A DNA stretch of 37,025 bases from a virus. Its lineage: Duplodnaviria > Caudoviricetes. Positions 2 through 37,025 of this stretch are shown here, in pieces; position 1 is the stretch's first letter; every line of letters begins with the position of its first letter. The stretch is from positions 1 through 37,025 of the IMG/VR virus record IMGVR_UViG_3300030207_001251; one strand, given 5' to 3'. The notes beneath the pieces were generated by a model. That model saw only the letters and a program-made list of their open reading frames with translations, was not told where the DNA came from and did not search any database. Both the position numbers and the translations under genes were made by a program.

Positions 2-99
2 GAGTGGTTTAATGAACGTGTCGCCGGAATCCCGAGTCCTCCGAGTGGATTGGTGCATCCGTCATTCAATGTAAACGTTCATGTGAGAGAAGTTGAGTA
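2..99. repeat. Terminal direct repeat, copy 1 (assembly overlap of a circular/circularly permuted genome)
   Basis: Bases 2-99 are identical to 36928-37025. The preceding base differs (A at 1, G at 36927), a synonymous GAA/GAG change in the terL frame. Confidence 0.95.
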
Positions 100-715
100 T
101 GACCCAGACGAGATTGTGTATCTTGCAGTTGACCCGGGGTACTCAAGGATGACCGAAAGTGCGTATGCCGTTGAGGTGTGCCACATAATCGATGGGCAGG
201 TGCAGGTATTTGACGAAATTTACGAGAGAGAATTGATTGCTTCCGACATTATCGAGGTAGCCAAGAAAAGATTTTGGTGGAATAACACGGATAAGTTTGG
301 CGTGATTGACGTTGCAGGAAATGCACACGCTGGAGCCATGCCATCAAACACTGAGATATGGTTCAAAGAAGCGAATATAATTATGCAAAGTCAGCCCGTA
401 AAGATTATTGACGGTATTGAGAGAATGAACAGTATGCTCAAGCCAGACCCAATAGACATGGAGCCCGGAATAGTCATTGACCCTACTTGCAAAGGACTGA
501 TTTCTGAACTTGGAGGAGGACCAAATCCGTTTGACGGACAGGTCAGAGTTTACAGTTGGCAGATGAACCGAGAAGGTGGGGTAGTTGGAAATGTTCCAAG
601 AGACAAGTATAATCATGCTGTAAAGGCATTAACTTATCTGATGGTAAATCAGTTTGGATATGCCGGTAATGAAAACTATTCAAGGGAGATTATCCCAGTG
701 ACGAGATTTAGATAA
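2..715 (+). CDS. terL: Terminase large subunit, C-terminal nuclease part (continues from 36232-37025)
   Basis: In frame with the ORF at the window end. RNase H-like motif YLAVDPG and C-terminal DKYNHAVKALTY; directly upstream of the portal. Confidence 0.9.
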   Translation, partial: EWFNERVAGIPSPPSGLVHPSFNVNVHVREVEYDPDEIVYLAVDPGYSRMTESAYAVEVCHIIDGQVQVFDEIYERELIASDIIEVAKKRFWWNNTDKFGVIDVAGNAHAGAMPSNTEIWFKEANIIMQSQPVKIIDGIERMNSMLKPDPIDMEPGIVIDPTCKGLISELGGGPNPFDGQVRVYSWQMNREGGVVGNVPRDKYNHAVKALTYLMVNQFGYAGNENYSREIIPVTRFR

Positions 716-20170: not shown

Positions 20171-20258
20171 ACATTACGGTGGTGGAAACAAAATGGGTGG
20201 AATGATGAAGAAAAAGAGGAACGGTAAAAAAAAGAATGGCACCAAGAAAAAAAAGTAA
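20163..20258 (+). CDS. 31-aa Lys-rich peptide (not in ORF track)
   Basis: MPKHYGGGNKMGGMMKKKRNGKKKNGTKKKK; AGGAGG RBS upstream. Confidence 0.55.
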   Translation: MPKHYGGGNKMGGMMKKKRNGKKKNGTKKKK

Positions 20259-20430
20259 AACAGCCAAAGGCGTTTCACTAAGTGGTTTGACTGCTAAACA
20301 GCAGACAACCATGGTTAAACACGCTAAACATCATACTGCAAAGCATATTAGAGATATGAAAAAACGTATGATGAAAGGTGTGTCATTTACAGCAGCCCAC
20401 AAACAATCACAGAAAGCAGTAGGAAGATGA
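20236..20430 (+). CDS. Small basic protein (Lys/His-rich)
   Basis: 64 aa, highly basic. Confidence 0.65.
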   Translation: MAPRKKSKTAKGVSLSGLTAKQQTTMVKHAKHHTAKHIRDMKKRMMKGVSFTAAHKQSQKAVGR

Positions 20431-20639
20431 AATTTATTCTTAAATTTTTACCACAACCCTACAAGAATATAGTTACATTCTTTTTGTCTACACTTGAAAA
20501 TGTAAACGAGAAAGAAGAACTAGAAAGAATAGGTAAACTATTTGCAGACATTCTTGAAGATGGTCACGTTACACCACAAGAGTGGTTATCTCTTGCAGGT
20601 AAAAACGGACTTGGTATACTAAAAGGTAATGGCAAGTAG
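20427..20639 (+). CDS. Hypothetical protein
   Basis: 70 aa, ATGA overlap with the previous gene. Confidence 0.6.
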   Translation: MKFILKFLPQPYKNIVTFFLSTLENVNEKEELERIGKLFADILEDGHVTPQEWLSLAGKNGLGILKGNGK

Positions 20640-20859
20640 AACTAAAAAAAAGAAAACTAAAAAAAAGGCAACCACAGGTAAACGTAAGTTTAAAAAGGTC
20701 CCTAAGACCAAAGGTGGTGTGCCTAAAAAGTACGTCAAGGGTGCTAAGAATCCAAAGGCTAGAGAAGCTGAGATAAAGAGAACTAGAAAACTTTATCGTG
20801 AAGGTAAACTTACACCTGCTATGATGGACAGAATAAGTAAACAGAGGAGCAGAGGATAG
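20629..20859 (+). CDS. Small basic protein (GVPKKY motif)
   Basis: 76 aa, very K/R-rich. Confidence 0.65.
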   Translation: MASRTKKKKTKKKATTGKRKFKKVPKTKGGVPKKYVKGAKNPKAREAEIKRTRKLYREGKLTPAMMDRISKQRSRG

Positions 20860-21170
20860 TGTCAGCAGGAAGATATAAAAGTATTCCCGGAGCAAGCAGG
20901 TACTCTAAATCTACCTTAGATAAGGTATACAAGAGAGGACTTGGTGCTTACTATTCATCTGGTAGCAGACCAAAAACAAGTGCTCATGCTTGGGCTATGG
21001 GAAGAGTAAAGTCTTTTGTAAGTGGTAAAGGTGGTGCAAGAAAAGCAGATAAAGATTTACTTAGAGGTGGTAGCAAAAAAACTACTGCAAAGAAGACTAC
21101 CAAGAAGAAAACTACCAAGAAGAAAACAACTCGTAGAAAGCGAGTAAAGACCATGGGTATGGGTAGTTAA
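20859..21170 (+). CDS. Small basic protein, DUF5824-like
   Basis: LDKVYKRGLGAYYSSGSRP..SAHAWAMGRVKSF recalls a family seen in marine viruses (from memory, unverified); KKTT-repeat tail. Confidence 0.6.
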   Translation: MSAGRYKSIPGASRYSKSTLDKVYKRGLGAYYSSGSRPKTSAHAWAMGRVKSFVSGKGGARKADKDLLRGGSKKTTAKKTTKKKTTKKKTTRRKRVKTMGMGS

Positions 21171-21485
21171 ATGGCACATGATAGTAGAAAGAAATCTATG
21201 CTCAAAAAGTATGGTCTTAAAGGTGTAAACAAAGCTAAGAGAACACCAAACCATCCTACAAAGTCACACGTTGTTCTTGCACAAGAAGGTCATACACTAA
21301 AACTAATTAGGTTTGGACAGCAAGGTAAACGTGTAGGCACATTGAAAGGCACAGCAGGTAAACCAAAGAAAGGTGAGTCTGCTAGAATGAAAGCCAAAAG
21401 AAAATCATTTAAAGCAAGGCACGCCAAGAATATTGCTAGAGGTAAAATGTCAGCAGCTTGGTGGGCAGATAAGGTGAAGTGGTAA
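21171..21485 (+). CDS. Small basic protein (IRFGQQG / SFKARH / WADKVKW family of marine phages)
   Basis: 104 aa with a recognisable conserved motif set. Confidence 0.65.
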   Translation: MAHDSRKKSMLKKYGLKGVNKAKRTPNHPTKSHVVLAQEGHTLKLIRFGQQGKRVGTLKGTAGKPKKGESARMKAKRKSFKARHAKNIARGKMSAAWWADKVKW

Positions 21486-21625
21486 TGCCAAAACCAAAAG
21501 GTAAAAAGAAATACAGCCCAAAGCAAAAGAAACTTGCACGAGTCGCACCACCACGAGACAAGATTACAGGTGCAGACTTTAAGAAGCTAAAAAGAAGAAA
21601 GAAAACTACTAAAAAACGTGGATAA
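21485..21625 (+). CDS. 46-aa basic protein (not in ORF track)
   Basis: MPKPKGKKKYSPKQKKLARVAPPRDKITGADFKKLK...; TAATG overlap with the previous gene. Confidence 0.6.
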   Translation: MPKPKGKKKYSPKQKKLARVAPPRDKITGADFKKLKRRKKTTKKRG

Positions 21626-28365: not shown

Positions 28366-28590
28366 TTATTTACCATTCACTGCAACATCAAAATTATTTG
28401 TTTTGAGAATGCCGATGATTGGTATGTAGAAATCAGGGTTCACAATGATTGGTGAGTTGTGAATATCATTGGGGTCCTTGTATGCCCACTGTTTCTTATC
28501 AATGTTCTTGGCTATAAAACTTCTTGCCTCTGGGTTCTGTGATACCAGAGTTACAATCTCCTGTGTTTTATAAATAAATACTTGTTTCAT
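28366..28590 (-). CDS. Hypothetical protein
   Basis: 74 aa, GGGAG RBS. Confidence 0.6.
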   Translation of the reverse strand: MKQVFIYKTQEIVTLVSQNPEARSFIAKNIDKKQWAYKDPNDIHNSPIIVNPDFYIPIIGILKTNNFDVAVNGK

Positions 28591-28601
28591 AATTGCTCCC
28601 T

Positions 28602-28635
28602 AAAAAGACACGGTGACCCTGTTACAGGTCACCGT
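28602..28635 (-). terminator. Hairpin, possible intrinsic terminator
   Basis: ACGGTGACC...GGTCACCGT followed on - by GTCTTTTT. Confidence 0.5.
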
Positions 28636-28698
28636 TTTGCAAAAGTTCTAATAATGCAATGTCTTGGTTGAGGTTGACTAGAAAGTCACAAATTCATA

Positions 28699-28894: not shown

Positions 28895-28905
28895 TTACTA
28901 ATACG
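28895..28905 (-). repeat. Early-arm motif site 12 (CGUA^UUAGUAA)
   Basis: TTACTAATACG on +; between hairpins and the AGGAGG RBS. Confidence 0.85.
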
Positions 28906-29078
28906 TTTCATTCCCTATTCCCACCCTAGGAACGGGAATGGGAATGGAATGGTGTTCCTTGTTCCATCCCTAGGGTCAGGAACAGGAACAGCATACGTTG
29001 AAGTTCCAAGTTCTGATACTAGTCAGAGAACTCAGAACTTCATAGGTTTTTATAGAAGAGGGCATAGTTGATAGTTAT

Positions 29079-30281
29079 TTAGTTAAGTCTGAAACCACAC
29101 TTTGGGCATGACTGCACTATGTTTGGTTCAGATTGTGGCGTAATTTGTGGTGGCACAAAGTTTCCATAAGCAACGTTAGTTGATTGAGCAATATTATTAT
29201 CAGTCAATCTTTTAAGAGTTGCTTGGTCGTAAGTGCCTCGTTGAACAATGTCGTTGCCATCCATCTGTGCTTGTATGTTTGCACTTGTGTTAGATGAATA
29301 CAACATTGAGTTAGGTCTAACCGTATTGTGTATCTTGGAAAGAGCACTTACATCCTTGATGTAGGACATACTTTCTTTCTCAAAATTAGCACCTTGGTCT
29401 TCCTCATCAACAAGCATTACACCATCCAATGCAGATGCCTCGTTGACTAGACCAATCAATTTCATGATGTAGTTTCTAGCCACCAAGTCTCTGCTCATGG
29501 ACAAAGGTATCTTCTGATGAACATTCAAAGAATACTTGAATTGAGTATCTTCAAGAGTCATCACTGGAATACCTAGTTCATAAAGCCATGGTGTTTCTGC
29601 TTCAAAGATTTCCACCTTTGTTTTCCTTTGTAGGTTTTTCATTGCGTTGATGCCATCAATCTCTTGCAAGACTGGAGTTGGCATTGTTACTTCAACACCG
29701 TGCTTTGACTGAGGTCTTGGAATAATCTCATTATTGACGACATAATTTATGCCTTCTGGTGGGATTACATTCCTCAGCATTTCCACAGCAGTTTCAAAGT
29801 CTCCCTTTACCATAGGTAATACAGCCTCAACCGTTGTGCCTTGGTGGTAGTTAGGGTCTTTGTGTTTAATCGTATTCCTCACACCATCTTTGAAACTAAC
29901 GGTGTAATTTCTAGTCTTAATCACAGCTTCCTTTGAAACAGCAATGAGTTGTTTCTCACCTGCATTGAACCTACCTGCAACAGTAGGGTCGTTTCTCTTT
30001 TCAGTAGTCCTGAAGAGAGTATAGATGTCGGTTGGGTCTTTGAAACCACCTCCGTCATCTTGCACCTTAAGTTGTGCAGGTCTGTTGCCATCCTTTGTAA
30101 GTTCTACAATACAAGAGGTTGGCGTAACAGCACCTTCAACGTAGCCCAAGAATTCATCGAACACATTGGTCACTAGTTCAACTGCGTGTCTCCATGCAGG
30201 GACAGAACCAAATAGTTCTTTGAGTCCTTTGATGTCTACTTCAAATGCAGATTTAATTCTGCTTACAACTTTCTTAGTCAT
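29079..30281 (-). CDS. GHKL (HATPase_c) ATPase with C-terminal CxxC
   Basis: ELVTNVFD (N box), DDGGGF (G1), GRFNAGEK (G2), GTTV; start moved to the ATG after AGGAGG. Confidence 0.8.
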   Translation of the reverse strand: MTKKVVSRIKSAFEVDIKGLKELFGSVPAWRHAVELVTNVFDEFLGYVEGAVTPTSCIVELTKDGNRPAQLKVQDDGGGFKDPTDIYTLFRTTEKRNDPTVAGRFNAGEKQLIAVSKEAVIKTRNYTVSFKDGVRNTIKHKDPNYHQGTTVEAVLPMVKGDFETAVEMLRNVIPPEGINYVVNNEIIPRPQSKHGVEVTMPTPVLQEIDGINAMKNLQRKTKVEIFEAETPWLYELGIPVMTLEDTQFKYSLNVHQKIPLSMSRDLVARNYIMKLIGLVNEASALDGVMLVDEEDQGANFEKESMSYIKDVSALSKIHNTVRPNSMLYSSNTSANIQAQMDGNDIVQRGTYDQATLKRLTDNNIAQSTNVAYGNFVPPQITPQSEPNIVQSCPKCGFRLN

Positions 30282-30304
30282 AATTTCCTCCTTAATTATG
30301 CCCT

Positions 30305-30315
30305 CTACTAAAACG
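30305..30315 (-). repeat. Early-arm motif site 11 (UAUCGUU^UUAGUAG)
   Basis: CTACTAAAACG on +; preceded on - by hairpin GAGCAGGAG-UAACU-CUCCUGCUC. Confidence 0.85.
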
Positions 30316-30331
30316 ATATTGAGCAGGAGAG

Positions 30332-30568
30332 TTACTCCTGCTCCCACTCTAACTTTCCCTGCTCCCACATTAACTCTTTCTTCCATTCTAAGGCTCTCTC
30401 ATATTCACCATCTATTTCTTCCTGTGTGAATTTCCACAATGGTTTTTCTCCCATGTGTAAACCTTTTATCTCATCAATGACTGTACTCATATCATTCAAC
30501 TCCCAACCCTCTGACCACATCTCAAGTATGAGGTCAGTCTTCTTTTCATTTTCTTGTAAGTCAAACAT
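30332..30568 (-). CDS. Hypothetical acidic, Trp-rich protein
   Basis: 78 aa, TAATG overlap; stop codon sits in the hairpin loop. Confidence 0.7.
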   Translation of the reverse strand: MFDLQENEKKTDLILEMWSEGWELNDMSTVIDEIKGLHMGEKPLWKFTQEEIDGEYERALEWKKELMWEQGKLEWEQE

Positions 30569-30855
30569 TACTTCACCTCCTCTATGTCAAGTTCAGCAAA
30601 GTCTCCTGCACCTGACTTGATGAATTGAAGTTTTACCTCAAGACCCTCATAGTCTTTTACATCAAGAGTTTCATCTTTCTTGATTTCAATCAATGCACAC
30701 TTAGTCATGTCAGTCTCCTGACCTTGAGCCAAATCATCACCATCTCCCCAATAAAATACTTCTTCTAGTATTCCTTTAGGTAATGGAATGTTTGAAACAA
30801 TCTCATAGTGCCTAGTTTGTTGTTGGTACTCTTCAAGTTTGTATGTTTTACCCAT
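30568..30855 (-). CDS. Hypothetical protein, paralog of 31480-31800
   Basis: Shared Y..EE..Q.TRHY.I.SN.PL...ILE..Y..G pattern. Confidence 0.75.
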   Translation of the reverse strand: MGKTYKLEEYQQQTRHYEIVSNIPLPKGILEEVFYWGDGDDLAQGQETDMTKCALIEIKKDETLDVKDYEGLEVKLQFIKSGAGDFAELDIEEVK

Positions 30856-30880
30856 ATTAATTCCTCCTTCATAGGTTGTT

Positions 30881-30891
30881 TTACTAAAACG
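30881..30891 (-). repeat. Early-arm motif site 10 (UAUCGUU^UUAGUAA)
   Basis: TTACTAAAACG on +; hairpin GAGGAGGC...GCCTCCTC at 30897-30918. Confidence 0.9.
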
Positions 30892-30951
30892 ATATTGAGG
30901 AGGCGTTTAAGCCTCCTCTTTTTCTTTGGGTGTCATGATGAATTGTTCTTG

Positions 30952-31107
30952 CTACTTTTCATCCACGCTTTCAGTAACGTGTGTCCAACCCTCTTGTTTA
31001 GCCAACTCTTTAAGTGCTGGCAGACAAGCTATGTAATGACTTTCACTTTCAAATGTAGCCACTTGCTCTGCTGAAAGCCATTTTTCAAAGTAAACCCTAA
31101 TCATCAT
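30952..31107 (-). CDS. 51-aa hypothetical protein (not in ORF track)
   Basis: MMIRVYFEKWLSAEQVATFESESHYIACLPALKELAKQEGW...; GGAGG RBS. Confidence 0.6.
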   Translation of the reverse strand: MMIRVYFEKWLSAEQVATFESESHYIACLPALKELAKQEGWTHVTESVDEK

Positions 31108-31279
31108 CCACCTCCTCTACTGTAGTTACCACCCATTGATAATCAACTGGCATATTTCCACCACCAATTTTCTCAATTTCAGTTCTTGCCTCATCCCAAA
31201 TATCTTCGGTCTCCAGTTCAAAAGTATCTTCATACTCTTCAGTGATAGTCCACTTGACTGTGTATTTCTTAGTCATCAT
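31097..31279 (-). CDS. Hypothetical acidic protein
   Basis: 60 aa, GGAGG RBS. Confidence 0.65.
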   Translation of the reverse strand: MMTKKYTVKWTITEEYEDTFELETEDIWDEARTEIEKIGGGNMPVDYQWVVTTVEEVDDD

Positions 31280-31427
31280 TACCCTCCTTCAGTTGCTTGT
31301 TGAGTTCATCTATTTTTTTCTGAACCCATACAACACCACGAGTATTGATAAGACTGTGAAGATTGAAAACATCAACCTCTTCTGAGATTTGTGCCATCTC
31401 TTCCAATTTTCTTTTAACATTTGCCAC
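31269..31427 (-). CDS. Hypothetical protein (52 aa)
   Basis: Start reassigned to the GTG after AGGAGG (MANVKRKLEE...). Confidence 0.65.
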   Translation of the reverse strand: MANVKRKLEEMAQISEEVDVFNLHSLINTRGVVWVQKKIDELNKQLKEGNDD

Positions 31428-31452
31428 TTTACCTCCTTGCAAACATTGTTTA

Positions 31453-31463
31453 TTACTAAAACG
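31453..31463 (-). repeat. Early-arm motif site 9 (UAUCGUU^UUAGUAAU)
   Basis: TTACTAAAACG on +; hairpin AGGAAGAGGC-AUAA-GCCUCUUCCU upstream on -. Confidence 0.9.
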
Positions 31464-31479
31464 ATATACAGGAAGAGGC

Positions 31480-31800
31480 TTATGCCTCTTCCTTTCTGAC
31501 TGCAAATTCACCACTACAAGTCTGGCTGTCATCACCATACTCTGTGCCTGTAAATTTAACAGTTACTTTTAAATCTTTTGGAAGGCTGTCATAACCTTGG
31601 TCATCCATCTCTTGTCTTACTGCCTCTGTGATGTCACTTTCTACATTGGCATCAGCATCGTCAAGTGACCCTACACCTAAATAGTATGTTGCCTCAAGAA
31701 TTTCTGAGTTTAAAGGATAGTTAGAGTCAATGGCATAATGCCTTGTATCTTGAGACCATTCTTCAACCCAATATTTTTTTACTGTTTTTTCTTCACTCAT
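31480..31800 (-). CDS. Hypothetical acidic protein, paralog of 30568-30855
   Basis: 106 aa, AGGAGG RBS. Confidence 0.75.
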   Translation of the reverse strand: MSEEKTVKKYWVEEWSQDTRHYAIDSNYPLNSEILEATYYLGVGSLDDADANVESDITEAVRQEMDDQGYDSLPKDLKVTVKFTGTEYGDDSQTCSGEFAVRKEEA

Positions 31801-31826
31801 ATTTATTCCTCCTATATGAATTATTA

Positions 31827-31837
31827 TTACTAAGACG
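31827..31837 (-). repeat. Early-arm motif site 8 (UAUCGUC^UUAGUAAU)
   Basis: TTACTAAGACG on +; hairpin at 31844-31871. Confidence 0.9.
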
Positions 31838-31853
31838 ATATTGAGCAGGAGGG

Positions 31854-32045
31854 TTACATTATCCCCCTGCTTTCTTTAATATCTATGATTTCCTCAATGT
31901 AATCTATAAATCTTAAATCTCTAATACTCATTCCACCATTTTCTTGACACAATTCTCTCAGTAATAACCTGAGATTTTTCATAGACCAATATTTATATTT
32001 TTCTAATTCTTTGTCGTCTGGGTGTAATTTTCTATATTCATTCAT
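31854..32045 (-). CDS. Hypothetical protein
   Basis: 63 aa, AGGAGG RBS. Confidence 0.7.
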   Translation of the reverse strand: MNEYRKLHPDDKELEKYKYWSMKNLRLLLRELCQENGGMSIRDLRFIDYIEEIIDIKESRGIM

Positions 32046-32070
32046 ACTTTACCTCCTATATGAATTATTA

Positions 32071-32081
32071 TTACTAAAACG
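32071..32081 (-). repeat. Early-arm motif site 7 (UCGUU^UUAGUAAU)
   Basis: TTACTAAAACG on +; hairpin CTCACAG...CTGTGAG at 32085-32109. Confidence 0.9.
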
Positions 32082-32118
32082 AGACTCACAGGAGGGGCTT
32101 GTCTGTGAGCCAAGGTTG

Positions 32119-33189
32119 TTAGGCTAGAGCAGGCTCTAGCACTGTGTTTGACAGATTTGCAACATCCCAACCGAATTTCTCAAACTCAGTAGCCCTGTCG
32201 TAGTCTTCTAAGTCTTGAGATGCCCTTGTTACAGCGTTTGTAAGTCCCCATTTAGTTGTGTCACCACCTTTGATTAAGTGGTTCAATACTGAGTCTTTCT
32301 CATCCTCTGTAAACCTAAACTGTTTCTGTATTATTTCAACAGCATCGATAGGCTTTGCTATCTCAGTTTCTGTAGTTTCCCTGAGTTTTCCCAACACATT
32401 ATTGAACCCTTCATTAGACAACACATTCCTCACTACATCTTGCACCTGACCAACTAAAGCCTCACTTGTTTTGTTCAGTGTGTCTCTGCTGAGTAAGTCT
32501 GTGATGTCATGTGATGCACCAATGTGTCTTCTTCTGAAAGATGTTTCTGCAATCATACCGTTCATGCAAACTAATCTTTCGATGAATGCTTGAACATTTA
32601 CAGAACCATATCCAACTTCTGAATTACTTACGATTACACCACCTCTGACAACGTCACCCTTCTCAATCTCACCTGTAAGTTTGTCAGTTACAGCTTTGAT
32701 GTAGAGTTTTTTCTCAGTAACATTCGATGAGATAATTTCTAGTTGCTCATCAAACATTACAGGCAACACAGCCTCGGCGACATCTTCATTATCAAAAGTC
32801 AGATACTTGTTAGACAAGTCAGCCCTCATCAAATCCCAGACAGTTGAACCGTCTGCTTGATAAGTTCTTATCATTCTTTTGTTTTGAGTTTGTCCTAACC
32901 AGTTGTTAACATTTTCTGCTAACAATACTGGGTTGTTGTTCATTACTCTTTCGTAGTAAGCGTAAGGAATTTGCAACCTTGTTGCTAGTTGTCTGTGTGC
33001 AGTGGATGTAATCTCCATTTGCTTTGAGTCATCAATACTCATTAAGACTGGTGCATTAGTTGTTACATCGTCTTGTTCAACTGGAAGTAATTGCATACTC
33101 CTGCTGTCCACGACCATGTCAACTTTTTTCTCTGCTTGGTCTGTAATTTTCTTTGCTAACTCATTTATGTTTAATCCTAATTTTGGCAT
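32119..33189 (-). CDS. DUF932-like phage/plasmid protein
   Basis: AHRQLATRLQIP, LS.KY..FDN, SNSEVGYGS, ERLVCMNGM, RRRHIG, TKWGLTNAVT. Confidence 0.8.
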   Translation of the reverse strand: MPKLGLNINELAKKITDQAEKKVDMVVDSRSMQLLPVEQDDVTTNAPVLMSIDDSKQMEITSTAHRQLATRLQIPYAYYERVMNNNPVLLAENVNNWLGQTQNKRMIRTYQADGSTVWDLMRADLSNKYLTFDNEDVAEAVLPVMFDEQLEIISSNVTEKKLYIKAVTDKLTGEIEKGDVVRGGVIVSNSEVGYGSVNVQAFIERLVCMNGMIAETSFRRRHIGASHDITDLLSRDTLNKTSEALVGQVQDVVRNVLSNEGFNNVLGKLRETTETEIAKPIDAVEIIQKQFRFTEDEKDSVLNHLIKGGDTTKWGLTNAVTRASQDLEDYDRATEFEKFGWDVANLSNTVLEPALA

Positions 33190-33222
33190 CTATGCCTCCT
33201 TTTGATGCCCCTCAATTTTTTA

Positions 33223-33233
33223 TTACTAAAACG
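33223..33233 (-). repeat. Early-arm motif site 6 (UAUCGUU^UUAGUAAU)
   Basis: TTACTAAAACG on +; hairpin AGGGGCA...TGCCCCT at 33243-33260. Confidence 0.9.
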
Positions 33234-33258
33234 ATACAATCGAGGGGCATGATTGCCC

Positions 33259-33420
33259 CTAATTTTCTTTCTTTTCAAAAGTAATTTCTACTCTGTTTTC
33301 ACCAATTAATAGTATTGTTTCAATTACTAATTCTTGATTTCTTAAGTCGTGCATTTTATCTTCAAATGGAATTAACTCACCATTATCATGATAGTAATAT
33401 ACATACTCTATATTAGTCAT
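33259..33420 (-). CDS. 53-aa hypothetical protein (not in ORF track)
   Basis: MTNIEYVYYYHDNGELIPFEDK...; AGGAGG RBS. Confidence 0.65.
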   Translation of the reverse strand: MTNIEYVYYYHDNGELIPFEDKMHDLRNQELVIETILLIGENRVEITFEKKEN

Positions 33421-33436
33421 TATTCCTCCTTATTTA

Positions 33437-33447
33437 TTACTAAAACG
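33437..33447 (-). repeat. Early-arm motif site 5 (UAUCGUU^UUAGUAAU)
   Basis: TTACTAAAACG on +; hairpin GAGCAGGG...CCCTGCTC at 33461-33482. Confidence 0.9.
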
Positions 33448-33470
33448 ATACCTAGCAACCGAGCAGGGGG

Positions 33471-33710
33471 TTAGCCCTGCTCTGGATTGTTTACCTCTTC
33501 GATTGTGTCAACGTCTGGCGTGTCTGGTTTCTCAGTCTTGTTTTTTATCAAGCCTAGATTTATGTAGTCCATTGCAGTTCTACCGAACCAACCTTGCATA
33601 GTCCAAGCTAATCCAGTGTCAACTAAATGTTGCCAAGCCTCAAAATATTCTTCTTTGTTTGTTGGTTCTAACATTCTTTCGGCTAGATTTATTGCTCTTA
33701 AGTTATCCAT
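33471..33710 (-). CDS. Conserved phage hypothetical protein
   Basis: AWQHLVDTGLAWTMQGWFGRTA motif; AGGAGG RBS. Confidence 0.75.
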   Translation of the reverse strand: MDNLRAINLAERMLEPTNKEEYFEAWQHLVDTGLAWTMQGWFGRTAMDYINLGLIKNKTEKPDTPDVDTIEEVNNPEQG

Positions 33711-33734
33711 AATATCCTCCTATATGAATTGTTT

Positions 33735-33745
33735 TTACTAAGACG
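33735..33745 (-). repeat. Early-arm motif site 4 (CGUC^UUAGUAA)
   Basis: TTACTAAGACG on +; hairpin GCAGGGT...ACCCTGC at 33746-33764. Confidence 0.9.
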
Positions 33746-33754
33746 GCAGGGTCA

Positions 33755-33838
33755 TCAACCCTGCTCTTTTAAGATTGTGAAAATAGAATTATCACTGACA
33801 ACTATATTTCCTGTATCATTAATAGACACTTCAATCAT
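33755..33838 (-). CDS. 27-aa peptide occupying its own motif-bounded unit (not in ORF track)
   Basis: MIEVSINDTGNIVVSDNSIFTILKEQG; AGGAGG RBS; stop in hairpin loop. Confidence 0.6.
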   Translation of the reverse strand: MIEVSINDTGNIVVSDNSIFTILKEQG

Positions 33839-33864
33839 TTTAACCTCCTTGATTAAAGTTAGAG

Positions 33865-33875
33865 TTACTAAAACG
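33865..33875 (-). repeat. Early-arm motif site 3 (UCGUU^UUAGUAA)
   Basis: TTACTAAAACG on +; hairpin GAGGGGCA...TGCCCCTC at 33883-33902. Confidence 0.9.
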
Positions 33876-33909
33876 AGGTTGGGAGGGGCATCCCTGCCCC
33901 TCTCACTAT

Positions 33910-34269
33910 CTAAAGATAAAGTGGTGGTGGGTATCCTAAACCTCCTGCTTTAGCTTTACCCCACAATAAAAGTCTTATGTAGTAAAATGCTTTTTCATCT
34001 TTGCCACCGATATGCCACATATCAATATCTTCTTTATCTAAACCATCAACTGGGTCGTAATTCTTTCCGTCTTTCCAGTTGTAAATTGTAGCAACTGTTT
34101 TGTCAGGAAATTCAAACACCCATTCGCATAGTATTTTTTTATCCAAACTCTCGCCCAAATGTTCTTTTCCAAACACTGAAACAAGTTTGTCATAGGATAT
34201 ATTTATATGCCCTTTGAAACTACATCCAAAGTCGTTATGAGTTGGTTTGATTCTGATTGCTGTCAACAT
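33910..34269 (-). CDS. Conserved phage hypothetical protein
   Basis: SYDKLVSVFG...EW...VATIYNWK...WHIGG; start moved to the ATG after AGGAGG. Confidence 0.75.
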   Translation of the reverse strand: MLTAIRIKPTHNDFGCSFKGHINISYDKLVSVFGKEHLGESLDKKILCEWVFEFPDKTVATIYNWKDGKNYDPVDGLDKEDIDMWHIGGKDEKAFYYIRLLLWGKAKAGGLGYPPPLYL

Positions 34270-34299
34270 GATTAAATCCTCCTTCATCATGATTATTTT

Positions 34300-34310
34300 T
34301 TACTAAAACG
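34300..34310 (-). repeat. Early-arm motif site 2 (CGUU^UUAGUAA)
   Basis: TTACTAAAACG on +; hairpin AACGGTTGG...CCAACCGTT at 34313-34344. Confidence 0.9.
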
Positions 34311-34353
34311 GCAACGGTTGGAGGCTTGCGAAACCCCAACCGTTACAATCAAA

Positions 34354-34509
34354 CTAAACTTTGTTAGTCTGAACTCTCTCACAGAACATACATTTAGTTT
34401 TTGCAGTTCCATCGTCCAACCTTTCAATGATTTCACTGACTGGGTGTGAACAATTGAATTGCTCCATTGTGAATTGTTCTGGGTGATTATTAACTATCCA
34501 TGATGCCAT
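34354..34509 (-). CDS. 51-aa zinc-finger-like protein (CxH...CxxC), first gene of the early arm (not in ORF track)
   Basis: MASWIVNNHPEQFTMEQFNCSHP...KCMFCERV; GGAGG RBS. Confidence 0.65.
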   Translation of the reverse strand: MASWIVNNHPEQFTMEQFNCSHPVSEIIERLDDGTAKTKCMFCERVQTNKV

Positions 34510-34530
34510 GGTTCCTCCATTGCTAATTGT

Positions 34531-34541
34531 TTACTAAGACG
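34531..34541 (-). repeat. Early-arm motif site 1 (UUUCGUC^UUAGUAA), proximal cis site
   Basis: TTACTAAGACG on +; hairpin CCAAGCGAC...GTCGCTTGG at 34545-34572. Confidence 0.9.
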
Positions 34542-34700
34542 AAACCAAGCGACAATTTGGAGGGTCGCTTGGCGTTGTCATTGATTCTATCGTTTCGGAT
34601 TATTAGTCTTTGCATTTAATCCAAGCGTTGCCACTTGGAACCATCCACCATCAATAGGTTCGGTTGCATTCCTGACTTTCACAGTTCATCAGCTAGTAAT
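34531..34700 (-). ncRNA. Hammerhead-ribozyme-like RNA (type I topology, expanded non-canonical stem II region)
   Basis: - strand: AUUACUAG (34700-34693), CUGAUGA (34692-34686), 89-nt structured insert, GAAA (34596-34593), CGAUAG (34592-34587), hairpin, UUUCGUC^UUAGUAA. Stems I and III pair; the base of stem II is not canonical. Confidence 0.7.
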
Positions 34701-35214
34701 TTTTTATGAAATAATCTAGTCTTCCAACGTTTCTGACTCTTCACAGATTTCTTAGGTTCTGAACTGCGTAATCCAATCGCATAGAGTAGTTTTCCGATGT
34801 CAGTATTTTAGTCAATCTCAACCAGTGAAATATAAAAAATAGTGACTTGTTTAACATTCGATTATTTATTTGTAAGTGACTTTTTGCATTCTGTCACGAT
34901 GTGGTTTCTCTGGCTCCCCGAACTCGACTCTCACGATTGGAGGCATCCCAGTTGACTACTTAGGCTCATTAAAGGATTTTAGGTATCAATCCTCTGGTAA
35001 CTATCGATTCACCTTCCTCGGGATGAGTAGTCCCTTCCAGCAACCTGCGAGGTTCGGGGTCTGAGAGGTGAGCCTAAGCTACTTTGCTTTGACCCCTCAT
35101 CTTTGGTGTTCTACTCAACCTACTTACCGAACCCAACCTGTTTCAATCCTAGTGTATTTGTTGGGGCTTGCTAGCCCTAACTAACCTGAGATTTAACTTC
35201 ATCAACTAACCACT
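34701..35214 (-). ncRNA. Long structured non-coding leader upstream of the hammerhead-like core
   Basis: No RBS-led ORF; several hairpins and crossing long-range complementarities; starts just after the promoter. Confidence 0.6.
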
Positions 35215-35220
35215 AAAATC

Positions 35221-35250
35221 ATTCTAACACCATATAAAATAATATGTCAA
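35221..35250 (-). promoter_or_regulatory. Sigma70-type promoter for the early arm
   Basis: - strand TTGACA (35250-35245), 18-bp spacer ending in TGT (extended -10), TAGAAT (35226-35221). Confidence 0.8.
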
Positions 35251-35318
35251 CACCTAATTTAAAACGGGATAATGTGGCACATTCATTTAAATATATTTAC
35301 AACCTGATAAAATAGTAA

Positions 35319-35837
35319 ATGACTATGAGCAGGAAAATACAATTAGATAATAAAAAGATAGATTTAATAAAGCAGGATATAGAACGGCTTGGACTACACC
35401 CTACAAGTGCCATAATTAGACGCTGTGGGGTTTCTGAGTCTGTGGCTATGGGTTGGCTCCGTTTCGGTGAAAAAGTCCGTGTAACATTAGATACAGAAAC
35501 AGATACAGATACTATAGATACAGTAACAGTAACAGATACAAAGAACCTGAATCCCAGTGACAGATACAAGCAACTGACACTAAAACTTCATGATACTGTT
35601 ACAGAGGCTGTAACTGAGTTTGAGGCTTTGCAACTAACGGAATTAACGACTGCACAGAATGAGGCTGTTAAGAGTAAAAATAGCCAGTGGCTCCTGTCTA
35701 AAAAATACCCTGACAGATACGGTGACAATAAGAACCAGACGACAATAGACGACCAAGCAAACGCCCTAATCCAAGCATTAATAAATATAAATGTGCCAAT
35801 CTCCGAAGATAAAAAGCCAATAGAGGACACGGCGTAA
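35319..35837 (+). CDS. Putative terminase small subunit
   Basis: N-terminal HTH (RRCGVSESVAMGWL), helical middle, WLLSKKYPDRYG motif; upstream of terL. Confidence 0.65.
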   Translation: MTMSRKIQLDNKKIDLIKQDIERLGLHPTSAIIRRCGVSESVAMGWLRFGEKVRVTLDTETDTDTIDTVTVTDTKNLNPSDRYKQLTLKLHDTVTEAVTEFEALQLTELTTAQNEAVKSKNSQWLLSKKYPDRYGDNKNQTTIDDQANALIQALININVPISEDKKPIEDTA

Positions 35838-36215
35838 CGCTATATAAAACGCCGTAACATCATAAAGGACAAAATTCCAAACAGTTGGGAATCATTCCAA
35901 ACTAAAGAGGGACATTCTCAAAAGCATTCTAAATAACAAAATGGGAACGAATGGGAACGTAAGGCACAATGAGGCATGATACCCCCAAAGCCCCAAAGTC
36001 CCGTCTATGAGCCTCTGAGAGCCTCTGAGAGGTGCGTATGATTCGGATTCGGAAAAAAAAATGCGTGTGGTGGGGTGGATGGGTGGTGGTGGTTGATGGG
36101 TGGTCTGGTGTCTGTCTGTGTCTGTGTGTCGGTGTCAGTGTGTCGGCTGCAAGGGGGGTGGTTCTTGTGGTCGCTTGCTGGTCTGTGTCTGTGGTACTAC
36201 CTCCTGTAAATTTTA
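35838..36215. repeat. Non-coding region of short tandem duplications plus a G/T-rich tract (candidate packaging/terminus region)
   Basis: AATGGGAACG x2, CCCCAAAG x2, GAGCCTCTGA x2, ATTCGG x2, then a nearly A-free tract at about 36062-36195. Confidence 0.6.
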
Positions 36216-36231
36216 TGCTAAAATGTGTCTC

Positions 36232-37025
36232 ATGATACATGAACAACGTGATGCCCTATTCAGTGCCATAGGTTACACACCTACGGCTGCACAGCTTGAT
36301 ATTCTCAATGATGATGCTAGATTCAAACTGGTTGCCGGTGGCGTGAGAGCAGGTAAGTCCAATCTTGGTGCTATGTATATGTTTGAGAAGATAATGTCCA
36401 AGATTGTAGAAGACCCTGATGCTGCTTCGGGCAGTGTCTATTGGCTAGTAGCTGCTGATTACGAAAGAACTAGGGGTGAGTTTGACTATCTTGGAGATGC
36501 CTTCAACAGGCTAGGTGTAATTAAACGTGCCACGAGGCAGGTTGACCCCGGATACATCGAGGTGTCCGTTGGTTCTAAGAACCTAAAACCGTTGGTAATC
36601 AAGACTAAATCTGCGACTGACTACAGAAAACTTGCGATGGAAGCCCCGATGGGCATCGTTGCTTGTGAGGCTTCGCAGTTAGACCAAGAAAGTTATTGGC
36701 GATTGATGGAGAGAGTGGCAGAAAAGCGTGGTTGGGTATTCCTAGAAGGTACTTTTGAAGGTAGTCTAGGATGGTACCCCCAACAATTTACGTCATGGCA
36801 ATCACCGGGTATCCAAAATTTAGAGAGTGCAAAAAGTTTTTCACTACCTACATGGACTAATACGCATATATTTCCGTTGGGAGAGCACGACCCTGAAATA
36901 GAAAAGATGAGAAATGAGCATTCCGAGGAGTGGTTTAATGAACGTGTCGCCGGAATCCCGAGTCCTCCGAGTGGATTGGTGCATCCGTCATTCAATGTAA
37001 ACGTTCATGTGAGAGAAGTTGAGTA
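36232..37025 (+). CDS. terL: Terminase large subunit, N-terminal ATPase part (joins 2-715; about 469 aa in total; missed by ORF track)
   Basis: MIHEQRDALFSAIGYTPTAAQ (Q motif), Walker A AGGVRAGKS, YWLVA, Walker B region GIVACEA; open to the window end. Confidence 0.9.
   Translation, partial: MIHEQRDALFSAIGYTPTAAQLDILNDDARFKLVAGGVRAGKSNLGAMYMFEKIMSKIVEDPDAASGSVYWLVAADYERTRGEFDYLGDAFNRLGVIKRATRQVDPGYIEVSVGSKNLKPLVIKTKSATDYRKLAMEAPMGIVACEASQLDQESYWRLMERVAEKRGWVFLEGTFEGSLGWYPQQFTSWQSPGIQNLESAKSFSLPTWTNTHIFPLGEHDPEIEKMRNEHSEEWFNERVAGIPSPPSGLVHPSFNVNVHVREVE
36928..37025. repeat. Terminal direct repeat, copy 2
   Basis: Identical to 2-99. Confidence 0.95.

What the first reader, a model, noticed from the sequence alone, without database searches (positions are those of the whole stretch)
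34587..34700. Atypical hammerhead architecture: stem II replaced by an 89-nt multi-branch domain
Seen: between CUGAUGA and GAAAC lie AGUC/GACU and UGCA/UGCA pairings enclosing a GAACC/GGUUC hairpin and a CAAGUG-GCAA-CGCUUG GNRA hairpin. The base after A9 (A) and the base before G12 (C) do not form the usual R10.1-Y11.1 pair. An alternative GGAUUA/UAAUCC helix sits directly before GAAA and would give a G-C closing pair with the insert placed after A9. Inference: a new hammerhead variant, or a regulated/switchable core. This is also the weakest point of the ribozyme model.
Basis: partly seen in the sequence, partly recalled or inferred. Interest (0 to 1): 0.8.

Follow-up and report, generated by a model that had tools for sequence, protein, structure and literature searches.

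The report
Rebuilt hammerhead ribozyme with thirteen targets
A phage carries a hammerhead-type RNA whose central stem is rebuilt as a large folded domain and whose two arms match thirteen sites in front of its early genes, so one RNA enzyme likely cuts the long early message into gene-sized pieces, which natural hammerheads are not known to do.

Summary
The 89-nt insert is real (minus strand, 34685-34597), and it is not the weak point of the ribozyme model. In related phages the core 3-8 pair covaries three ways (C-G, G-C, U-A), the signature of a selected hammerhead active site. Homologs support the UGCA helix and the GNRA hairpin, but break AGUC/GACU, GAACC/GGUUC and GGAUUA/UAAUCC, so a switch is unsupported. 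The covarying fold is: a conserved hairpin inserted after A9, a likely lone G10.1-C11.1 pair, a branched domain, and a pseudoknot to the strand just 3' of arm III. The arms match 13 sites on the same strand, each upstream of a gene's ribosome-binding site; 12 follow a stable hairpin. In two divergent lineages both arms shift together by 1 or 2 nt along the same repeat, always leaving one unpaired base. Best reading (0.7): a type I hammerhead that cuts itself free, then likely cuts the early polycistronic mRNA in trans. No cleavage was measured, and pairing is weak in one lineage. A lone 10.1-11.1 pair has a precedent (pseudoknot hammerhead); this fold, a natural G3-C8 and multi-site trans use were not found in nine literature searches.

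The parts
35221..35250 (-). sigma-70-type promoter, TTGACA-18-TAGAAT with TG before the -10 box; start site near 35214 is inferred
   Evidence: 11 of 12 matches; a TTGACA box sits at a similar distance in all 10 loci examined, where the script picked one in a set distance range
34701..35214 (-). about 510-nt non-coding leader 5' of the ribozyme; role unknown
   Evidence: 482-622 nt in 10 loci, longest ATG ORF 38 aa, fold z from +0.14 to -3.0 (window 0.04); 32 of 99 predicted pairs have a double change in 6 relatives outside the window's clade
34693..34700 (-). arm I (AUUACUAG), pairs with UUAGUAA(U) 3' of each cut site; G2.1-U1.1 wobble, A-U in most relatives
34686..34692 (-). hammerhead core C3-U4-G5-A6-U7-G8-A9
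   Evidence: 3-8 pair is C-G in 5, G-C in 5 and U-A in 2 of 12 rows; N7 varies
34672..34685 (-). conserved module inserted after A9: one A, then a likely CUG/CAG hairpin (ACU/AGU is the unresolved alternative)
   Evidence: its stem columns are invariant in the 12 rows; it carries a 170-nt loop insertion in L016 and recurs in the unrelated cis hammerheads L425/L435
34671..34671 (-). likely G10.1 of a one-pair stem II (partner C34597); G34672 if the first hairpin is ACU/AGU
   Evidence: invariant G-C; inferred, no covariation
34611..34668 (-). branched domain: UGCA/UGCA helix closing the hairpin 34664-34640 and the GCAA hairpin 34639-34620
   Evidence: double changes at alignment pairs 39-92, 40-91, 47-60, 66-85, 67-84, 68-83, 73-78
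34598..34608 (-). small hairpin ending just before C11.1
   Evidence: pair 98-106 is A-U in 4 and U-A in 8 rows; a 5-bp helix in L273/L440 and a 6-bp helix in L016 end at the same place
34588..34597 (-). C11.1, G12-A13-A14 and arm III (A15.1-C-G-A-U-A)
34579..34585 (-). pseudoknot strand pairing with loop 34656-34650 of the insert
   Evidence: 4 of 6 pairs with double changes; 6-7 bp in 7 of 7 loci examined, with a wholly different sequence in L016
34531..34572 (-). hairpin 34572-34545 and site 1 (cis site); predicted cut after C34538
28340..34313 (-). 12 further core-less sites CGU-H-UUAGUA, with H17 at 34307, 33872, 33742, 33444, 33230, 32078, 31834, 31460, 30888, 30312, 28902 and 28347; each lies 24-41 nt before a start codon

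Best explanation
This is a hammerhead ribozyme core with a rebuilt, covarying stem II domain and two arms complementary to 13 sites ahead of the phage's early genes, and it likely cuts itself free at the first site and then cuts the other twelve in trans. Shown by sequence comparison: the core, the 3-8 covariation, most helices of the insert, the pseudoknot, and the match of arms to sites in a lineage-specific register. Inferred: (1) transcription from the promoter at 35250-35221 gives one early polycistronic RNA; (2) stem II is a lone G10.1-C11.1 pair held by the inserted hairpin and the branched domain; (3) the pseudoknot caps arm III at about 6 nt and would pre-organise the enzyme strand, allowing short arms and turnover; (4) each cut would leave an upstream piece ending shortly after a protective hairpin with a 2',3'-cyclic phosphate, and a downstream mRNA with a 5'-OH and a 24-41 nt leader with a ribosome-binding site.
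For: The 3-8 pair is C-G, G-C or U-A in 12 of 12 aligned rows. G8C alone costs about 10^5-fold and C3G partly rescues it (PMC8495972, passage), so the double changes point to selection on the active site. The structure model has 98.2% of cells paired and 14 of 50 pairs with double changes; 0 of 500 shuffles reach either value. There are 11 exact CGUYUUAGUAA copies, all on the ribozyme strand, and the reversed control pattern gives 0. Register test, sites with at least 3 stem III and 5 stem I pairs: window 13 of 13, L012 13 of 13, L013 14 of 14, L179 13 of 13 and L267 14 of 14 in one register; L016 11 of 17 one nt later; L411 4 of 4 two nt later; none in any other register. At 80 non-redundant main-clade sites the unpaired base is U 44, C 27, A 8, G 1. 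The C that pairs with G15.3 is present at 77 of 80 main-clade sites and at 3 of 22 sites where the arm lacks that G (only two lineages, so not independent). In the window six distal sites pair better with arm III (6 bp) than site 1 does (4 bp). A lone G10.1-C11.1 pair works in the pseudoknot hammerhead (PMC11300833).
Against: No cleavage or expression was measured. In L016 the duplex is mostly only 3+5 bp, and 6 of 17 sites have C or A at position 16.1. In L013, L179, L267, L016 and L411 site 1 pairs arm III as well as or better than every distal site. The L273/L411/L440 type needs a roughly 30-nt two-hairpin insertion between C3 and U4, or else has a U3-G8 wobble; I placed its arm I by hand. 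The G10.1-C11.1 pair and the first hairpin are invariant, so covariation cannot test them. The homologs are few and close: 14 distinct sequences in 61 loci, many of them the same contig fetched more than once.
Confidence: 0.7

Rival explanations
1. It is an active but cis-only hammerhead. It cuts site 1 to release the roughly 680-nt leader RNA; the other repeats are gene-cassette junctions kept alike by recombination or by another function.
For: Site 1 has the best or joint-best stem III in five of seven loci. Distal duplexes are short and A/U-rich (L016: stem I -2.6 kcal/mol, stem III about 0). The genes between repeats differ among relatives. Natural hammerheads are described as acting in cis (PMC6155905, passage).
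Against: Distal sites obey the NUH rule and the lineage's register. In L016 and L411 they are not copies of site 1. In the window six distal sites pair better than site 1.
Confidence: 0.16
2. The insert is a regulated switch. Competing helices, or pairing of an upstream segment (about 34769-34759) with the core, turn cleavage on or off.
For: The window's MFE contains AGUC/GACU and a helix that sequesters the core. A large domain could sense a ligand or protein.
Against: AGUC/GACU and GGAUUA/UAAUCC are broken in most homologs with no double changes. In the close relative L433 the upstream segment changes so as to weaken pairing with the core while keeping its own hairpin.
Confidence: 0.07
3. 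The RNA binds the repeats but does not cut them (a guide or translational regulator), or the repeats are DNA or protein-binding motifs and the hammerhead likeness is vestigial.
For: Repeats lie next to ribosome-binding sites. About half of the close relatives have G3-C8, which is only partly active in model hammerheads. No Rfam hammerhead model matches.
Against: Three Watson-Crick types at 3-8 and no mismatch in 12 rows. U4, G5, A6, A9 and GAAA are invariant. One unpaired base is kept in three registers.
Confidence: 0.07

Closest known systems
Type I hammerhead ribozymes; clustered complete hammerheads in prophages (Perreault et al. 2011, PMC3088659; passages seen)
   Same: Same core and helix order with stem I open; phage intergenic setting; proposed cutting of long phage transcripts into gene-length mRNAs; natural U3-A8 covariation reported there.
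   Different: There each site has its own core. Here one core faces 13 sites. Stem II is not a simple helix, and G3-C8 occurs naturally.
Pseudoknot (PK) hammerhead (Zhan et al. 2024, PMC11300833; parts 1-2 of 6 read); Rfam RAGATH-1-hammerhead RF03152, which an earlier scan note equates with it (unchecked)
   Same: Stem II reduced to A9-G12 plus one standard G10.1-C11.1 pair, held by extra structure that includes a pseudoknot.
   Different: [quoted passage not shown] Here the pseudoknot partner lies 3' of arm III, a hairpin sits between A9 and the G-C pair, and the domain is 89-257 nt. RF03152 gives no match at E <= 10.
Engineered trans-cleaving hammerheads (PMC8495972 and PMC6155905; passages)
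   Same: An enzyme strand bearing both arms and the core, an NUH substrate, and short arms for specificity.
   Different: This one is natural, with its targets in the same genome and a large peripheral domain.
RNase III processing of the phage T7 early transcript (recalled, from no call)
   Same: One enzyme cuts an early polycistronic RNA at intergenic sites ahead of each gene.
   Different: The enzyme here would be a phage RNA that reads its sites by base pairing, not a host protein.
Discontinuous CLEC2 hammerhead (as described in PMC6765202, passage)
   Same: Enzyme and substrate halves lie far apart in one transcript.
   Different: One site, in cis, in a mammalian 3' UTR.

Membership tests
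Hammerhead ribozyme | Core CUGANGA and GAAA in the right order around three helices | tested here: met
   U4, G5, A6, A9 and GAAA invariant in 12 of 12 rows
Hammerhead ribozyme | Watson-Crick 3-8 tertiary pair | tested here: met
   C-G 5, G-C 5, U-A 2 of 12; the 2 L273-type sequences (of 14 distinct) meet it only if C3 precedes an insertion
Hammerhead ribozyme | Stems I and III flank one unpaired H17 after U16.1 (NUH) | tested here: met
   6 of 17 L016 sites are NCH or NAH
Hammerhead ribozyme | Stem II starts within 1-2 nt of A9 with an R10.1-Y11.1 pair (PMC10085705, passage) | tested here: not met
   14 nt including a likely hairpin lie between A9 and the likely G10.1; this is the variant feature, so the canonical architecture does not apply
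Hammerhead ribozyme | Protein-free site-specific cleavage | not testable with these tools
   needs in vitro assay
Rfam hammerhead families | Match to a covariance model | tested here: not met
   no hammerhead family listed at gathering score or at E <= 5-10
PK / RAGATH-1 hammerhead (RF03152) | Single G10.1-C11.1 pair | tested here: inconclusive
   invariant G-C fits, but there is no covariation
PK / RAGATH-1 hammerhead (RF03152) | [quoted passage not shown] | tested here: not met
   no match; the covarying pseudoknot goes to the strand 3' of arm III
Riboswitch-like switchable ribozyme | Two mutually exclusive conserved folds | tested here: not met

The most novel reading that the evidence does not exclude
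A phage-encoded, multiple-turnover RNA endonuclease built on a hammerhead core. A released RNA of about 680 nt, whose rebuilt stem II domain and pseudoknot form a rigid enzyme scaffold, reads short arms (and possibly the hairpin ahead of each site) to mature every early mRNA. Its cut position has slid along the target in step with its arms during evolution, and the A9-inserted hairpin marks a new hammerhead subclass also found in unrelated cis ribozymes.
Probability: 0.5. Interest if true: 0.92.

Novelty: new variant of a known kind. Interest (0 to 1): 0.8.

Why it matters
Reviews describe small nucleolytic ribozymes as acting in cis in nature, note an open search for trans-cleaving ones, and call the role of bacterial and phage ribozymes largely unknown (PMC6155905; PMC6765202; passages). 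This locus gives an enzyme strand, 13 substrates and predicted cut positions that one in vitro assay can test. It breaks the stated rule that no more than 1-2 nt separate the CUGANGA block from its stems (PMC10085705), which likely explains why the models miss it and suggests that more such variants are hidden. It supplies natural G3-C8 cores. A natural scaffold that works with 8-14 bp arms would be a starting point for trans-cleaving tools.

Tried and rejected
Rfam: no match at gathering score; only weak unrelated hits at E <= 10 in 30000-37025 and in 6 homologous loci; RF03152 none. No tRNA. No RNA holder was listed, so no reads were laid. Cultured-phage collection: no meaningful match for the window element or for L435. 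GTDB genomes: no relative of the adjacent small-terminase-like protein and 4 chance hits for the module pattern, so the host is unknown. Pattern scans gave mostly chance hits; no locus from L017 onward had three or more linked sites without the ribozyme. My own covariance model found only the L273 type beyond its training set, gave L425/L435 E 0.26-0.41, and did not list L016 (38 sources). My first structure string had three misregistered helices and was corrected. The repeats as intrinsic terminators or sigma-70 promoters: none of the 6 sites inside the region scanned (33000-36300) was called as such on the minus strand. A nested alternative core using the GAAU at 34671-34668 was dropped by eye because no stem I partner follows. 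The paper first describing the variant hammerhead (Weinberg 2015) is not held, and I read no supplements, so listings there or in Perreault 2011 could hold this module. Literature searches (listings seen) showed no report of this fold, of a natural G3-C8, or of a natural multi-target trans hammerhead; the library lacks most subscription papers.

Full report
Setting. The window is a whole phage record (G000, 99% complete). It has terminase and capsid genes on the plus strand, and small early genes and replication genes on the minus strand. The finding lies on the minus strand in a non-coding stretch, about 520 nt below a strong sigma-70-type promoter (35250-35221). Two homologous contigs have names beginning with TARA, which points to marine samples. 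The host is unknown.

Observation. No Rfam hammerhead model matches.

Is it a hammerhead? Relatives were fetched through neighbouring proteins and DNA patterns. Sixty-one loci carry the element, giving 14 distinct sequences. Twelve rows of the main clade align without gaps across the ribozyme. The core reads CUGAUGA, CUGAAGA, GUGAACA or UUGAAAA: position 7 is free, and positions 3 and 8 change together (C-G 5, G-C 5, U-A 2 of 12). C3-G8 is a tertiary pair of the active fold. G8C alone costs about 10^5-fold and C3G partly rescues it (PMC8495972, passage). Natural U3-A8 was reported by Perreault 2011 (passage); I found no report of natural G3-C8. This is the strongest evidence that the active site is under selection.

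What the insert is. AGUC/GACU loses its U-A pair in 8 of 12, GAACC/GGUUC is 78% paired with no double change, and GGAUUA/UAAUCC shows none either. A column-pair scan gave a better model, which scores 98.2% of cells paired and 14 of 50 pairs with double changes, above all 500 shuffles and all slid controls (relatedness inflates the shuffle test, and the model was derived from these rows). From 5' to 3' it is: A9; one A; a likely CUG/CAG hairpin (34684-34672); G34671; the UGCA helix closing two hairpins (34664-34640 and 34639-34620); a small hairpin (34608-34598); C34597; GAAA. The loop of the first inner hairpin pairs with 34585-34579, just 3' of arm III; this pseudoknot has 4 of 6 pairs with double changes. 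The divergent lineages keep the plan with new letters. L273/L440 have a 5-bp and L016 a 6-bp helix ending right before C11.1, and both have a 7-bp pseudoknot. L016 has a 170-nt insertion in the first hairpin's loop and lacks the GCAA hairpin. Two unrelated metagenome loci (L425, L435) hold a compact cis type I hammerhead with the same module after A9, two hairpins and C-GAA, a stem I that differs yet stays paired, and U15.1-A16.1. So stem II is likely a lone G-C pair, as in the pseudoknot hammerhead structure (PMC11300833), but with a different topology. It also departs from the statement that known hammerheads have at most 1-2 nt between CUGANGA and the stems (PMC10085705). Two caveats apply. 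The lone pair and the first hairpin are invariant, so ACU/AGU with G34672 cannot be excluded.

What it acts on. The arms match CGU-H-UUAGUA at 13 places on the same strand, all downstream of the core; 11 are exact CGUYUUAGUAA, with none on the other strand. Each site lies 24-41 nt before a start codon with a ribosome-binding site. Twelve of the 13 follow a hairpin of -12 kcal/mol or better, against a background median of -4.9. Only the first site is tethered to the core, and my model found no second core in the window. Under a strict rule the window scores 12 sites, 20 block shuffles at most 2, and 209 unrelated loci at most 8, with A/T-rich arms. The six long relatives tested carry 13-17 sites each, with different genes between them.

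Arms and sites move together. Main clade: arm I UUACUA(A/G), arm III ACG, cut GUH|UUAGUA. L016: arm I UACUA, arm III AAC, cut one nt later. L273/L411/L440: arm I UUACU, arm III AGAC, cut two nt later. Sites with at least 3 stem III and 5 stem I pairs number 13 of 13, 13 of 13, 14 of 14, 13 of 13 and 14 of 14 (five main-clade loci), 11 of 17 (L016) and 4 of 4 (L411), each only in its own register (sites chosen as GU-NN-UAGUA followed by a ribosome-binding site and start codon, and L411's arm I placed by hand). The unpaired base is G at 1 of 80 main-clade sites. The C opposite G15.3 is found at 77 of 80 main-clade sites and at 3 of 22 elsewhere. In L016 the position that becomes unpaired is relaxed (4 of 18 not U, none G, against 2 of 80). 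These contrasts rest on two lineages only.

Against. No activity or expression data were obtained. L016 pairs weakly (mostly 8 bp), and 6 of its 17 sites lack U16.1, which the NHH rule allows. Site 1 pairs best or joint best in five of seven loci. The L273 type needs a two-hairpin insertion inside the core turn, or else has a U3-G8 wobble.

Mechanism. Shown: core, covarying scaffold, arm-site complementarity and site placement. Inferred: cis cleavage after C34538 releases an RNA of about 680 nt; the pseudoknot and branched domain hold the enzyme strand folded and cap arm III, so short duplexes form and release; each cut gives a hairpin-ended upstream piece and a 5'-OH mRNA with a uniform leader. 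Some distal cuts could also be made before release, while still in cis. From my own knowledge, 5'-OH ends resist 5'-monophosphate-dependent decay, which would stabilise single-gene messages.

Novelty. It works like a hammerhead and meets the core criteria, but it fails the canonical stem II criterion and every Rfam model, so I file it as a new variant. Nine searches found no natural multi-target trans hammerhead in print. Four earlier AI notes of this scan describe the same one-core, many-sites layout in other phage genomes; they are unchecked and not independent support, and they mean that the layout itself is not unique to this window. What this locus adds is the rebuilt stem II fold, the three-way 3-8 covariation and the sliding register. 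Interest 0.8.

Noticed in passing
window 34701-35214 (-); L398:9315-9895, L400:9325-9896, L408:9273-9894, L411:1672-2234: A 480-620 nt non-coding leader 5' of the ribozyme. It is mosaic between clades, has many double changes in 6 relatives (32 of 99 predicted pairs) and no Rfam match in the window. It may be an undescribed large phage RNA or a further domain of the enzyme.
   Followed up: partly
L425:1622-1712 (+), L435:1811-1901 (+): Compact cis type I hammerheads in unrelated metagenome contigs with the same module after A9 and U15.1-A16.1; the predicted cut lies about 12 nt before a start codon. They are the smallest version of the variant and a good construct for structure work.
   Followed up: partly
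L273:302-337 (-), L411, L440: Two hairpins (a GNRA-capped one and a 6-bp one with a double change between L273 and L440) lie between arm I plus C and UGAUGA, apparently an insertion inside the core turn.
   Followed up: partly
L016:3034-3206 (+): A 170-nt insertion in the loop of the conserved hairpin after A9.
   Followed up: no
window 28600-28640 (-): A hairpin followed by a decayed site-like sequence before the gene at 28590; L267 has an intact-looking site at the same place.
   Followed up: no
window 28905-29010 (-): A cluster of long inverted repeats and short tandem CCATT-type units just upstream of site 28902.
   Followed up: no
window 36223-37025 and 50-715 (+): Terminase large subunit matches at both ends of the record, so the genome is likely circular or circularly permuted and opened inside this gene.
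   Followed up: no
window 20236-21625 (+): A run of small lysine-rich ORFs; the two scanned had no Pfam match.
   Followed up: no
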